The notes below the pieces were generated by a model that did not search any database, was not told the origin of the DNA, and was given only the letters and a program-made list of their open reading frames with translations. Shown here one piece after another: positions 1,450 to 2,253 of a stretch of 42,271 nt of DNA (positions within the stretch are counted from its first letter, which is position 1; each line of letters opens with the position of its first letter). Source of the DNA: a virus (taxonomy: Duplodnaviria > Heunggongvirae > Uroviricota > Caudoviricetes); the IMG/VR virus record IMGVR_UViG_2718218308_000003, positions 1 through 42,271 of that record, one strand, 5' to 3'. A program made the translations under genes and the position numbers.

Positions 1450-2253
1450 TTAATCCGGCTTTGCGTTCTTTTGGCTGTTGTCTCGGTTAATAGGGCAGGC
1501 AGTCCTCTCTATGAGCGTTGCAAGTGCATTACTTGCCCCCCACTGCTTAAGCTCCCTGGTTATCGCTTCTTGATTTCCCCTGGTGGCAAAATCATTTTCT
1601 GGATCGTAATTGGCCCACTCTCTGTTTCTAATCTCAATAGCCTTAGCTAATGGGTCTTTATCCCAGTATTTATATAAGTGTATCGGGCGCTCTTGCTCTA
1701 ACTGCTCTATCCTTGCCCTTAACTCTGCGTTTTCTTTTTCCAGCATTGCGATTTGGGATAATAAATCATCCTCTGTACGCAACTCTTTCTTTTCAATATC
1801 GCGTCCTTGTGCCTCGTCATTTTCAGAAGAGTTAGCGCCTTCCAGCTTCGTTAACGCGTCAAGGACATCGGGAAAAATTGCGAAAATTTCACCCCTTATA
1901 AATCCAATGTTCTCAAATTCGGGATCTTCCCAATAACCGGACACCAGAAAACCATTTTCATCCCTCTCACCAGGTAAACAACCACGTTTCCGAACCGCAT
2001 TCAGATTTCTATAAAGAACATCATTATCAAATTCATCCCGATACGGGTTACAAAAAGATTCCAACAGCTTAAATTCATTTACTGTGTACAGGCGGATATG
2101 TTCTCCGCTTATTCTCCTGAGTATCCAAGTTATGACATCTGAAACATCATAATCATCACCAGCGACCTTAAGCACGACCTCAAGAAATTCACGTAAAGAA
2201 ATAAAATCTTTTTTGTATTCGTTTAATTCGGCATGAATATCAATCATACGCAC
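1450..2253 (-). CDS. Hypothetical protein (267 aa) with an acidic coiled-coil segment; function unknown
   Basis: Long uninterrupted ORF between alpA and the P4-type integrase. Contains a heptad-like stretch (ENAELRARIEQLEQE). I recognise no family. Confidence 0.5.
   Translation of the reverse strand: MRMIDIHAELNEYKKDFISLREFLEVVLKVAGDDYDVSDVITWILRRISGEHIRLYTVNEFKLLESFCNPYRDEFDNDVLYRNLNAVRKRGCLPGERDENGFLVSGYWEDPEFENIGFIRGEIFAIFPDVLDALTKLEGANSSENDEAQGRDIEKKELRTEDDLLSQIAMLEKENAELRARIEQLEQERPIHLYKYWDKDPLAKAIEIRNREWANYDPENDFATRGNQEAITRELKQWGASNALATLIERTACPINRDNSQKNAKPD

What the first reader, a model, noticed from the sequence alone, without database searches (positions are those of the whole stretch)
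1450..2253. Unrecognised 267-aa coiled-coil protein in the integrase-proximal slot of the P4-type island
The gene lies between the P4-type integrase and alpA, which is the variable cargo position of this island family, and its product matches no family I recognise. It has moderately low GC and an acidic C-terminal coiled coil. Proteins in this slot are often defence or anti-defence genes. The island is cut off by an IS903 copy just beyond alpA, so this may be its only surviving cargo gene in the window.
Basis: inference. Interest (0 to 1): 0.5.

Follow-up and report, generated by a model that had tools for sequence, protein, structure and literature searches.

The report
Zipper protein guarding satellite's alpA switch
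The unrecognised gene is real, but rather than random cargo it looks like a fixed, fast-evolving part of the on/off switch of a phage-satellite island, probably a DNA-binding regulator of the island's master activator alpA, which could help explain how such islands sense when to mobilise.

Summary
The ORF is real: 1450-2253 on the minus strand. The likelier start is the ATG at 2247, giving 265 aa. It matches no Pfam, NCBIfam, PADLOC or PHROG family and no solved or viral fold.

It does not behave like exchangeable cargo. Its C-terminal ~70-aa module ("C1") follows a four-heptad leucine zipper. In all 21 loci examined, from Enterobacterales, Orbaceae and Pasteurellaceae-like elements, the C1 gene lies directly upstream of alpA, even where no integrase is adjacent. 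The N-terminal half is swapped, split off or replaced.

Three control elements flank the gene:
- A conserved LexA-box-like site at the int stop codon.
- The Rfam "int-alpA" RNA, whose hairpin loop is complementary to the gene's Shine-Dalgarno sequence.
- An array of ACCCTnAGGGT palindromes spaced by whole helical turns, at fixed distances from alpA.

The palindrome array occurs only in the C1 loci of Enterobacterales. It is absent from five islands with other occupants (or none) in the slot, although their AlpA is up to 88% identical.

Best reading (confidence about 0.4): a dimeric, probably SOS-expressed, operator-binding regulator of alpA with a variable sensor domain. The defence-cargo reading is not excluded but has no positive support. 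In this window the island is only a remnant, cut by IS903 inside antA.

The parts
1450..2247 (-). Gene X, 265 aa (267 aa from the GTG at 2253). It has a variable N-terminal domain (residues 1-~135), an acidic linker, a leucine zipper (residues 162-187) and the conserved C-terminal module C1 (residues ~186-255).
   Evidence: ORF. RefSeq calls it a hypothetical protein, WP_000565285.1. Alignment A1 shows a variable N half and a nearly invariant C half. The exhaustive profile search found 92 clusters, many sharing only C1 or only the N domain. AlphaFold2 gave pLDDT 71.5 for the whole protein and 80 for C1 alone.
2264..2331 (-). int-alpA RNA motif (Rfam RF02996), forming the 5' leader of gene X. 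The loop of its second hairpin (ACACCUC) is complementary to the Shine-Dalgarno sequence of X (GAGGUGU, about 2252-2258).
   Evidence: cmscan gave 45.5 bits against a gathering score of 35.8. The motif sits in the same place in all 10 related loci tested. P1 is 99% paired, with compensatory changes in 6 of 9 pairs. The loop-SD helix is 88% paired, with one compensatory change. A loop-to-downstream helix of 5-8 nt is present in 18 of 18 sequences, including phage contigs with quite different loop sequences.
2358..2377 (.). LexA-box-like palindrome TACTGTATACTCAACCAGTC overlapping the int stop codon. Candidate promoter hexamers lie at 2374-2379 (-35, GTGACT on the minus strand) and 2351-2356 (-10, TAGACT).
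   Evidence: It matches the SOS-box consensus TACTG(TA)5CAGTA at 14 of 20 positions (consensus from my own knowledge). The motif occurs once in the window, with 0 expected. A CTG-N10-CAG follows the int stop codon in nearly every related locus, including non-C1 ones, and L008 carries a perfect CTGTATATAAATACAG. The promoter hexamers were read by eye; the consensus scan did not call them.
1314..1434 (.). Operator-like array of three perfect ACCCTnAGGGT palindromes (1348-1358, 1381-1391, 1424-1434) and one degenerate copy (1314-1324), lying between the stop codon of X and the alpA promoter.
   Evidence: These are the only copies in 42 kb. The centres lie at -75, -109, -142 and -185 from the alpA ATG, with spacings of 34, 33 and 43 bp. 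Across loci the same positions recur, with spacings of 21-23, 32-34, 43-44 and 52-53 bp. The array is absent from five non-C1 loci whose AlpA is up to 88% identical.
1422..1436 (-). Terminator-like hairpin followed by a T-run, 14 nt after the stop codon of X. It coincides with the distal palindrome.
1249..1281 (-). Inverted repeat in the alpA leader (UACCUCGU...AUGAGGUA) that would sequester the alpA Shine-Dalgarno sequence.
   Evidence: Read directly from the sequence and conserved in related loci. It was neither folded nor tested.
1047..1244 (-). alpA, the AlpA-family regulator known as the master activator of Gram-negative PICIs.
   Evidence: PF05930, E 2.4e-19. Its role is taken from PMC6092414.
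2376..3590 (-). P4-family tyrosine integrase.
   Evidence: Pfam domains.
3757..3802 (.). 46-bp direct repeat of the thrW 3' end. It is the att junction between the satellite remnant and the neighbouring prophage.
   Evidence: Exact 46-nt match to 40828-40873 of tRNA-Thr(CGU).
906..969 (-). The first 21 codons of antA, cut off by IS903.
   Evidence: Comparison with the intact island L001 and translation.
1..905 (-). IS903 copy (terminal inverted repeat at 886-905) that deletes the rest of the satellite. It runs off the window edge.

Best explanation
Gene X is a lineage-conserved component of the satellite's induction switch, not cargo. I think it is a dimeric transcription regulator. A parallel leucine zipper would pair two copies of the conserved C-terminal four-helix module (C1). 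These would bind the helically phased ACCCTnAGGGT operator array that starts just after the gene's own stop codon and runs up to the alpA promoter. In this way X would set the level of the master activator AlpA. The exchangeable N-terminal domain would be the input side, binding a helper-phage or host partner.

X itself appears to be doubly gated. Transcription would start from a promoter overlapped by a LexA-type box, so it would be switched on by DNA damage, when resident helper prophages are also induced. Translation would be controlled by the int-alpA RNA leader, whose hairpin loop can pair with the gene's Shine-Dalgarno sequence.

I lean towards X acting as an SOS-triggered activator or relay for alpA rather than a maintenance repressor. 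The sign is not resolved.

Shown here:
- The gene, its modular architecture and its fixed linkage to alpA.
- The RNA motif and its covariation.
- The conserved box.
- The phased array and its co-occurrence with C1.

Inferred:
- That C1 is what binds the array.
- That LexA binds the box.
- The direction of regulation.
- What the N domain senses.
For: 1. Synteny. A C1-bearing gene lies directly upstream of alpA in the window, in L001-L006 (E. coli, Citrobacter) and in L007-L015 (Kluyvera, Raoultella, Symbiopectobacterium, Pantoea, Xenorhabdus, two Photorhabdus, Escherichia sp., Orbaceae). It does so also in L024-L027, three of which are cf-PICI-like with terminase upstream instead of int.
2. Modularity. 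C1 is nearly invariant while the N half is replaced, lost or encoded as a separate ORF. All four combinations N1-C1, N1-C2, N2-C1 and N2-C2 exist.
3. Operator array. ACCCTnAGGGT occurs 3-5 times in nine of the closest C1 loci, and once or as degenerate copies in L011-L013. It occurs nowhere else in the 42-kb window. Its distances from the alpA ATG are conserved, and its spacings are about 2, 3, 4 and 5 helical turns.
4. The array tracks C1, not AlpA. Five loci with DUF6387, C2-type or no occupant have none. Yet L031 AlpA is 88% identical to L010 AlpA, with an identical helix-turn-helix segment, which is closer than the AlpAs of C1 loci are to each other.
5. More distant C1 subtypes (Orbaceae, Pasteurellaceae) have their own different inverted repeats in the same place.
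6. Zipper. Leu162, 169, 176 and 183 occupy d positions and Asn173 an a position, followed by Pro188. AlphaFold2 predicts one long helix at 159-186.
7. Regulated expression. The int-alpA RNA scores above the Rfam threshold and shows covariation plus an anti-SD loop. The LexA-like box is conserved at the int stop codon.
8. C1 is under purifying selection between E. coli alleles (dN/dS 0.18, window against L002), whereas the N domain evolves fast (0.66, window against L005).
9. The literature states that a global repressor or sensor of Gram-negative PICIs is unknown, and that alpA is switched on by an unidentified helper signal (PMC6092414).
Against: - C1 is not basic (pI about 6.5).
- The link between C1 and the array is a co-occurrence among related islands, so shared ancestry could produce it. 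The array could instead be bound by another island or host protein.
- The distal palindrome doubles as a terminator-like hairpin.
- The LexA-like box sits at varying distances from the putative promoter in different loci. The promoter itself was not called by the consensus scan.
- One comparison gave dN/dS of about 1 for C1 (window against L005).
- For the related EcCICFT073, alpA was reported not to respond to SOS without a helper phage (PMC6092414).
- Other PICI lineages function with other proteins, or none, in this slot. X is therefore not universally required.
Confidence: 0.4

Rival explanations
1. X is an anti-phage defence or helper-interference protein. The fast-evolving N domain would recognise a phage component. 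The conserved zipper and C1 part would oligomerise or act as effector. It would be expressed when the cell is damaged or a prophage is induced.
For: The N domain is swapped and evolves fast (dN/dS 0.66), as expected in an arms race. The same interval holds other uncharacterised proteins in sister lineages. Satellites are known carriers of immune genes (PMC11364771). EcCIMP1 also has a small accessory gene between int and alpA (PMC11773190). The gene has lower GC than its neighbours.
Against: There is no hit to 5027 PADLOC models for X or for its slot-mates, apart from coiled-coil noise. No enzymatic, membrane or toxin domain was found. The strict positional coupling to alpA and to a private operator array is not what exchangeable cargo shows. 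The published PICI 5' hotspot is att-int, and the P4 hotspot is int-psu. X has no relatives in 50,697 phage records, unlike Tai-type systems, which are shared with phages.
Confidence: 0.2
2. X is an SOS-induced protein-binding factor and not a DNA binder. It could be an antirepressor or hijacker that titrates a helper-prophage repressor or a host replication/repair protein, in the manner of Tum of phage 186, the Gifsy antirepressors or P4 Epsilon. C1 would contact AlpA or another conserved island protein.
For: A LexA-like box lies upstream, which is the hallmark of LexA-controlled antirepressors (my own knowledge). In split relatives the N-domain ORF ends in ...PMDFDDDIPF, identical to the E. 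coli SSB C-terminal tip that docks host replication and repair proteins (SSB sequence from my own knowledge). The protein is acidic. No DNA-binding fold was found.
Against: This does not explain why a phased palindrome array accompanies C1 and only C1. The window's own protein lacks the SSB tip. No partner can be named.
Confidence: 0.2
3. The ORF is a decaying or functionless remnant in this strain, and possibly in general.
For: In this window the island has lost everything beyond alpA to IS903, so any role in satellite mobilisation is moot here. Several database copies are frameshifted.
Against: The ORF is intact and at least 99% identical in 140 complete E. coli genomes. Full-length relatives exist in many genera. 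C1 shows dN/dS of 0.18. The frameshifted copies come from low-quality assemblies.
Confidence: 0.05

Closest known systems
Stl / Rpr master repressors of SaPIs and other Gram-positive PICIs
   Same: Both are satellite-encoded proteins sitting next to int at the head of the island's regulatory region. Both combine a conserved part with a highly variable part. In Stl the variable part binds different helper-phage proteins and so couples satellite induction to the helper (PMC6092414). X shows the same conserved-plus-variable logic and lies directly in front of the master regulator gene.
   Different: The domain order is reversed: in X the conserved part is C-terminal. No recognisable helix-turn-helix was found. 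X is transcribed in the same direction as the genes it would control, not divergently. An apparent LexA box and an RNA leader lie upstream, and X may activate rather than repress. There is no sequence or detectable fold similarity.
LexA-controlled antirepressors (Tum of coliphage 186, Gifsy GfoA/GfhA) and P4 Epsilon
   Same: These are small mobile-element proteins placed behind an SOS box, so that DNA damage triggers a switch which the element's own repressor cannot sense. This comparison rests on my own knowledge.
   Different: Those proteins act by binding repressor proteins and have no associated operator array. X shows no sequence similarity to them in the Pfam, PHROG or NCBIfam scans.
Rfam RF02996 int-alpA RNA motif
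   Same: The 68-nt leader of X is a member. Its score is above the gathering threshold, and the stems are supported by covariation in the relatives collected here.
   Different: Rfam types it as an sRNA gene of unknown function. Here it is always the 5' leader of the slot gene (X, ORF-N or DUF6387), with an anti-Shine-Dalgarno loop. That suggests a cis-acting translational operator.
Bro-N / KilA-N network of domain-shuffling phage and satellite regulators
   Same: Modules are shuffled combinatorially among proteins at one conserved position of P4/PICI-type satellites (PMC10111431). X-type proteins likewise form N1/N2 by C1/C2 combinations.
   Different: X has no Bro-N, KilA-N, ANT or related Pfam domain. 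It lies in the integration zone upstream of alpA, not in the Bro zone downstream.
DUF6387 (PF19924) proteins
   Same: They occupy the same position behind the same LexA-like box and int-alpA RNA leader in sister islands (L031).
   Different: X has no Pfam hit to DUF6387. DUF6387 loci have no palindrome array, only a terminator-like hairpin before alpA.
bZIP transcription factors (the RefSeq name for some alleles)
   Same: Both have a four-heptad leucine zipper with Asn at a core a position. There are weak sub-threshold Pfam bZIP hits.
   Different: The segment before the zipper is acidic (SSENDEAQGRDIEKKELRTEDD), not basic. Any DNA-binding part would follow the zipper rather than precede it.

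Membership tests
Rfam RF02996 int-alpA RNA (for the leader of X) | Covariance-model score at or above the curated gathering score | tested here: met
   45.5 bits against 35.8 at window 2331->2264. The 10 related loci scored 39-52 bits.
Rfam RF02996 int-alpA RNA (for the leader of X) | Stems maintained by compensatory changes | tested here: met
   P1 has 9 pairs, is 99% paired, and 6 pairs change on both sides. P3 is 97% paired. 0 of 500 shuffles reach the observed covariation score.
LexA (SOS) operator | CTG-N10-CAG with an AT-rich core close to the consensus TACTG(TA)5CAGTA, placed at a promoter | tested here: inconclusive
   The sequence matches 14 of 20 positions, including all CTG/CAG positions. 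It is unique in the window and conserved at the int stop codon in related loci. Its position relative to the putative promoter varies. LexA binding cannot be tested here.
Known anti-phage defence systems (PADLOC-DB 2.0) | Significant match to a defence-protein model | tested here: not met
   X gave 0 families at E <= 1. Slot-mates and distant C1 proteins gave only two coiled-coil-type marginal hits.
PICI 5' immune-hotspot cargo | Position in the documented hotspot and replacement by unrelated systems between otherwise similar islands | tested here: not met
   The literature held here places the PICI 5' hotspot between att and int (PMC13586616). In the window that interval is 166 bp and empty. 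The C1 gene is retained in 21 of 21 loci of its lineage. Other alpA lineages do have other occupants.
Stl/Rpr-type satellite master repressor | Recognisable helix-turn-helix DNA-binding domain | tested here: inconclusive
Stl/Rpr-type satellite master repressor | Divergent transcription from the operon it controls | tested here: not met
   int, X and alpA all lie on the same strand.
Stl/Rpr-type satellite master repressor | Variable domain binds a helper-phage protein that lifts repression | not testable with these tools
   Only the conserved-plus-variable architecture is shown.
bZIP transcription factor | Basic DNA-contact region immediately N-terminal to the zipper, and a Pfam bZIP score above the cut-off | tested here: not met
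   bZIP_2 scored 12.7 bits against a 22.3-bit cut-off. The preceding segment is acidic.
Leucine zipper (structural motif) | Leu at every seventh position over at least 4 heptads within a predicted continuous helix | tested here: met
   L162, L169, L176 and L183, with N173 at an a position. AlphaFold2 predicts a helix at 159-186.
Gram-negative PICI (the island that carries X) | int, alpA and a primase in one orientation, about 10-17 kb, without phage structural or lysis genes | tested here: met
   The intact relative L001 has int, X, alpA, antA, Icd-like, DUF4222, primase, ProQ and PerC over about 14 kb. The window copy is truncated after alpA.
P4-like satellite (SatelliteFinder core: int, psu, delta, sid, alpA, ash, alpha) | Presence of the psu-delta-sid capsid-hijacking operon | tested here: not met
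   None is annotated in L001 or in the other intact relatives. The integrase, and the isrK/C4 immunity RNAs found in related loci, are of P4/P1 type.
DUF6387 (PF19924) | Pfam match | tested here: not met
   X has no hit. The slot-mates in L028 and L031 match at E 1e-71 and 4e-38.

The most novel reading that the evidence does not exclude
The C1 family is the missing signal-integrating master regulator of a widespread lineage of Gram-negative phage satellites. On this reading it is a functional analogue of Stl built on a new DNA-binding fold. It would bind a helically phased operator array to switch alpA. A swappable N-terminal domain would read the helper phage; in some relatives that domain is a separate protein carrying an exact mimic of the SSB C-terminal tip. 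X itself would be gated by LexA and by the int-alpA RNA acting as a cis translational operator. This would also assign a function to an orphan Rfam motif.
Probability: 0.25. Interest if true: 0.75.

Novelty: new variant of a known kind. Interest (0 to 1): 0.55.

Why it matters
How Gram-negative PICIs stay silent and how they sense a helper phage has been open since these islands were described. AlpA is known to be the activator. What controls alpA, and what the phage signal is, have been reported as unknown (PMC6092414).

This locus offers a concrete, testable candidate. It is a conserved protein with a private operator array in front of alpA. It has a variable input domain, an SOS-type box and an orphan RNA motif as its leader.

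If the reading is confirmed, several things follow:
- A regulator and an input pathway would be defined for one large satellite lineage.
- The int-alpA RNA would gain a function.
- A new small DNA-binding module would be added to the known set.
- The slot-mates (DUF6387 and the C2-type proteins) would be flagged as possible alternative regulators.

If the defence reading turns out to be correct instead, the family would be a new single-gene system with a fast-swapping sensor domain.

In this particular window the island is a dead remnant. Experiments should therefore use intact copies, such as those in ETEC L7_E1373 or O104:H4 C227-11.

Tried and rejected
- Family scans of X (Pfam, NCBIfam, PADLOC, PHROGs) returned only sub-threshold coiled-coil matches. 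The same held for 10 distant relatives and for the slot-mates, except for DUF6387.
- Profile searches of PDB sequences with C1 and with the N domain found nothing.
- Homology between C1 and the alternative C-terminal module C2 was rejected (hhalign probability 0.2%).
- Homology of the N domain to AlpA/Xis winged helices was not supported. The hhalign probability was 15%, covering only a C-terminal helix. The beta-alpha-alpha-beta-beta topology in the model remains only a visual impression.
- The bZIP annotation carried by some RefSeq alleles was rejected because the region before the zipper is acidic.
- The idea that AlpA binds the palindromes was rejected as the simplest reading. Near-identical AlpAs occur without the array.
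- A pseudoknot between the RNA loop and the first downstream AGAGG site scored poorly on my alignment (56% paired). The pairing with the Shine-Dalgarno site scored well (88%).
- The word-indexed protein search with the C1 profile returned only 14 short fragments. They were still useful for four extra genomic contexts.
- The first genome-collection scan with the broad C1 alignment failed for lack of a conserved stretch. A narrower alignment worked.
- The Cell 2022 paper on PICI immune systems is not held, so its gene list could not be checked directly.
- tblastn of X against 50,697 phage records found no match.
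Full report
**1. The observation**

The window holds an uninterrupted minus-strand ORF at 1450-2253 (267 aa from GTG). On one side is a P4-family tyrosine integrase (2376-3590). On the other is an AlpA-family gene (1047-1244; PF05930, E 2e-19).

The likelier start is the ATG at 2247, giving 265 aa. It lies 4-5 nt after a GAGGTG Shine-Dalgarno sequence and is the start RefSeq uses for WP_000565285.1, a 'hypothetical protein'.

GC content is 41.7%, against 50.0% for the window. The protein is acidic (pI 4.7). It matches no Pfam, NCBIfam, PADLOC or PHROG model beyond sub-threshold coiled-coil noise.

An IS903 end (886-905) removes the island 21 codons into antA. A 46-bp repeat of the thrW 3' end lies next to int.

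One detail needs correcting. The coiled coil is internal, not C-terminal. It is a four-heptad leucine zipper with Leu162, 169, 176 and 183 at d positions and Asn173 at an a position. A near-neutral 78-residue helical domain follows it.

**2. What kind of island carries the gene**

Intact copies show this gene order: int, X, alpA, antA, Icd-like, DUF4222, primase, ProQ/FinO, PerC, then hypothetical genes. The element is about 14 kb and has no psu/sid/delta (L001, E. coli ETEC L7_E1373). That is the Gram-negative PICI layout. Its integrase is of P4 type, and related loci carry isrK/C4 immunity RNAs of the P4/P1 type.

In the window the remnant sits in tandem with a roughly 37-kb myovirus-type prophage that occupies thrW.

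**3. The protein family is small, modular and satellite-specific**

The word-indexed search found 31 clusters, all labelled 'hypothetical', from E. coli, Salmonella and Citrobacter. Their alignment shows a variable N-terminal half and an almost invariant C-terminal part.

The exhaustive profile search found 92 clusters at 50% identity:
- Many share only the last ~95 profile positions (zipper plus a ~70-aa module, here called C1). The C1 consensus is P-ILL..YR.DDPL..AI.IRN.EW.NY....A.AIE.VACPI.R. It sits behind unrelated N-terminal regions of 100-280 aa.
- Some clusters are C1 almost alone, at about 110 aa.
- Others share only the N domain, joined to a different C-terminal module (C2).

None of these proteins carries a Pfam domain. 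No relative exists in 50,697 deposited phage genomes.

AlphaFold2 gives a confident N domain (pLDDT about 85), a long helix at 159-186 and a four-helix C1 (pLDDT 80 when modelled alone). Neither model has a significant structural neighbour in the PDB or BFVD.

**4. The gene is positionally locked to alpA**

tblastn of the island's proteins against nine loci from other genera showed int, then the C1 gene, then alpA in every case where the contig reached that far. Integrase identity fell as low as 38%. The genera were Kluyvera, Raoultella, Symbiopectobacterium, Pantoea, Xenorhabdus, two Photorhabdus, an Escherichia species and an Orbaceae bacterium.

Four further contexts gave the same result. 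One is from a Pasteurellaceae genome and three are from unlabelled assemblies or metagenomes. Three of the four are cf-PICI-like, with portal and terminase genes upstream and no int. Even there the C1 gene is the gene immediately before alpA.

In complete E. coli genomes this allele of X occurs in 147 of 5426 genomes and the matching alpA allele (at least 95% identity) in 156. The two numbers are nearly equal.

Clear cargo sits upstream of the RNA leader and does not replace X. The example is the NYN-like gene in the Orbaceae locus, which I recognised by eye.

Other alpA lineages, in about 1160 E. coli genomes, hold other proteins at this position: DUF6387, a C2-type protein, or nothing annotated. 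The interval is therefore variable between lineages. Within a lineage, however, the occupant is a fixed partner of alpA. It also belongs to a shuffling network in which all four combinations N1-C1, N1-C2, N2-C1 and N2-C2 are found.

**5. Control elements around the gene**

*(a) A LexA-box-like site.* At the int stop codon lies TACTGTATACTCAACCAGTC (2358-2377). It matches the SOS-box consensus at 14 of 20 positions (consensus from my own knowledge) and occurs only once in the window. An equivalent CTG-N10-CAG follows the int stop codon in nearly every related locus, including the non-C1 ones. Raoultella has a perfect CTGTATATAAATACAG.

*(b) The int-alpA RNA.* Positions 2331-2264 match Rfam RF02996 'int-alpA RNA' (45.5 bits; gathering score 35.8). 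The motif sits in the same place in all ten relatives tested.
- On my alignment, stem P1 is 99% paired, with compensatory changes in six of nine pairs. P3 is 97% paired.
- The P3 loop (ACACCUC) is complementary to the Shine-Dalgarno sequence of X (GAGGUGU). This helix is 88% paired across loci. It co-varies in the DUF6387 locus (CACCCC with GGGGUG).
- Phage contigs have the same core motif in front of homing-endonuclease or primase genes. Their loops are quite different but again pair with a downstream site.
- I therefore read the motif as a cis-acting translational operator for whatever gene sits in the slot. This is an inference.

*(c) The palindrome array.* Between the stop codon of X and alpA lie three perfect ACCCTnAGGGT palindromes and one degenerate copy. 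They are the only copies in 42 kb.
- Nine of the closest C1 loci have 3-5 copies at conserved distances from the alpA ATG: -75, -109, -142/-152, -174/-185 and -206. L011, L012 and L013 have one copy or only degenerate copies.
- The spacings are 21-23, 32-34, 43-44 and 52-53 bp, which correspond to 2, 3, 4 and 5 helical turns.
- An 11-bp palindrome cannot form an RNA hairpin. Phased palindromes of this kind are what a cooperative, dimeric DNA-binding protein would use.

*(d) The alpA leader.* The alpA leader itself contains an inverted repeat that would sequester its Shine-Dalgarno sequence. I read this from the sequence and did not test it.

**6. What binds the array**

Five islands with another occupant, or none, in the slot have no such palindrome anywhere. 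Their AlpA proteins are nevertheless 57-88% identical to those of C1 loci. The L031 AlpA is 88% identical to the L010 AlpA, with an identical helix-turn-helix segment. That is closer than the AlpAs of C1 loci are to each other (71-78%).

The array is also the same in loci with different N domains. It is present as well where the N domain is a separate ORF.

The array therefore tracks C1. It does not track AlpA or the N domain. More distant C1 subtypes carry different inverted repeats at the same place. The Orbaceae locus has ACTATnATAGT. The cf-PICI-like loci have longer inverted repeats.

Taken together with the dimer-type zipper directly in front of C1, the most economical reading is that C1 is a DNA-binding module and the array is its operator.

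This is an inference from co-occurrence among related elements. No known DNA-binding fold was detected, and shared ancestry could mimic the correlation.

**7. Proposed mechanism**

DNA damage would relieve LexA, and the leader-X transcript would be made. Translation would depend on the state of the RNA leader. X would then dimerise through the zipper and occupy the phased array in front of PalpA, setting AlpA production. AlpA is the known activator of PICI excision and replication (PMC6092414). The variable N domain would provide a second input, from a helper or host protein.

I lean towards activation for two reasons. A maintenance repressor would not be expected behind an SOS box. And most sites in the array lie upstream of the core promoter. 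The sign is nevertheless open.

For EcCICFT073, alpA was reported to need a helper phage and not SOS alone. I did not check whether that island carries a C1-type gene.

Selection is consistent with a conserved output module and a fast-evolving input module. dN/dS is 0.18 for C1 between two E. coli alleles and 0.66 for the N domain. One C1 comparison gave about 1.

**8. Rival explanations**

*Defence or interference protein.* This fits the fast-evolving N domain and the general habit of satellites. It has no positive support, however: no PADLOC hit, no effector domain and no phage-borne relatives. It also does not explain the private operator array. In addition, the papers held here describe the PICI 5' hotspot as lying between att and int.

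*SOS-induced protein-binding factor (antirepressor or hijacker).* This fits the SOS-like box. It also fits a striking feature of split relatives: the separate N-domain ORF ends in ...PMDFDDDIPF, the exact C-terminal tip of E. coli SSB. It too leaves the array unexplained.

*Pseudogene.* This is unlikely. The ORF is intact and at least 99% identical in 140 complete E. coli genomes, and full-length relatives exist in many genera.

**9. Comparison with known systems, and novelty**

Functionally, the nearest analogue is the Stl/Rpr repressor of Gram-positive PICIs. Stl also combines a conserved DNA-binding part with a variable helper-sensing part and sits next to int. X fails the membership features of that family, namely a recognisable HTH and divergent transcription, and it shares no sequence or fold with Stl.

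The leader is a bona fide member of Rfam RF02996. The 'bZIP' label on some RefSeq alleles is not supported.

The protein family is undescribed. If the model holds, it is a new variant of a known kind of thing, a satellite master regulator. It would address the stated open question of what controls alpA in Gram-negative PICIs.

In this window the island is a truncated remnant, so the interest lies in the family rather than in this particular copy.

Noticed in passing
L007 6417-6737, L008 6362-6730, L010 6417-6737, L015 6051-6371 (L009 6480-6785 ends in GDIPF): In Kluyvera, Raoultella, Pantoea and an Orbaceae bacterium the N domain is a separate 101-122-aa ORF. Its last residues, ...(P)MDFDDDIPF, are identical to the C-terminal tip of E. 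coli SSB, the peptide that docks PriA, RecQ, ExoI, chi and others (SSB sequence from my own knowledge). It looks like an SSB-tail mimic encoded by a satellite, immediately upstream of the zipper-C1 ORF.
   Followed up: partly
window 2264-2331 (-); L016, L018, L020-L023 (IMG/VR contigs): The core of the int-alpA RNA motif (CUAGG..CCCGAAAA.CCG plus a hairpin) also precedes GIY-YIG/HNH-type homing-endonuclease-like genes and a primase gene in phage contigs (gene identities read by eye from the translations). In each case the hairpin loop pairs with a site near the downstream start codon. The motif may be a general cis-acting translational operator of mobile-element genes, not something specific to int-alpA.
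   Followed up: partly
window 1249-1281 (-): The alpA 5' leader has an inverted repeat (UACCUCGU ... AUGAGGUA) that would sequester the alpA Shine-Dalgarno sequence. It is conserved in related loci, including the non-C1 ones. It suggests a further translational control layer on the master activator.
   Followed up: no
window 3803-40827, with thrW at 40828-40903 (-): A roughly 37-kb myovirus-type prophage (tail sheath, tape measure, baseplate, terminase, capsid) lies between thrW and the satellite remnant. The two elements are in tandem, separated by a 46-bp thrW repeat. The intact satellite in L001 abuts the same kind of prophage. This prophage is a candidate helper.
   Followed up: partly
L015 about 4500-5950: In the Orbaceae locus a gene that looks NYN-domain-like (by eye) is inserted between int and the RNA leader. 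Duplicated promoter / LexA-like sequence flanks it. This suggests the true cargo insertion point of these islands lies upstream of the leader, not in place of X.
   Followed up: no
L029 2617-3357, L032 2752-3342; P0059, P0061, P0070, P0078: A second unnamed C-terminal module (C2, consensus GKDTALK.IAG.AIALE..GGKY.RG.KLNKS) replaces C1 in some islands. It combines with the same N-terminal domains. It has no Pfam or PADLOC hit and no detectable homology to C1.
   Followed up: partly
L007-L009, L012, L015 (about 2-3 kb downstream of alpA): isrK and C4 antisense RNA hits (P4 CI / P1 C4-type immunity RNAs) lie in the antA/Bro zone of these PICI-like islands. This agrees with the report of such RNAs in Gram-negative PICIs (PMC10111431).
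   Followed up: no
window 36491-36713 (+): A hit just above threshold to the sRNA family STnc100 (49.1 bits against a gathering score of 47) lies inside the prophage region.
   Followed up: no
window 4376-5407 (+) and 5580-6728 (+): Near the satellite-proximal end of the prophage there is a 343-aa transposase-like ORF and a 382-aa multi-pass membrane ORF that resembles an acyltransferase. Both were judged by eye from the translations and were not scanned against any library.
   Followed up: no
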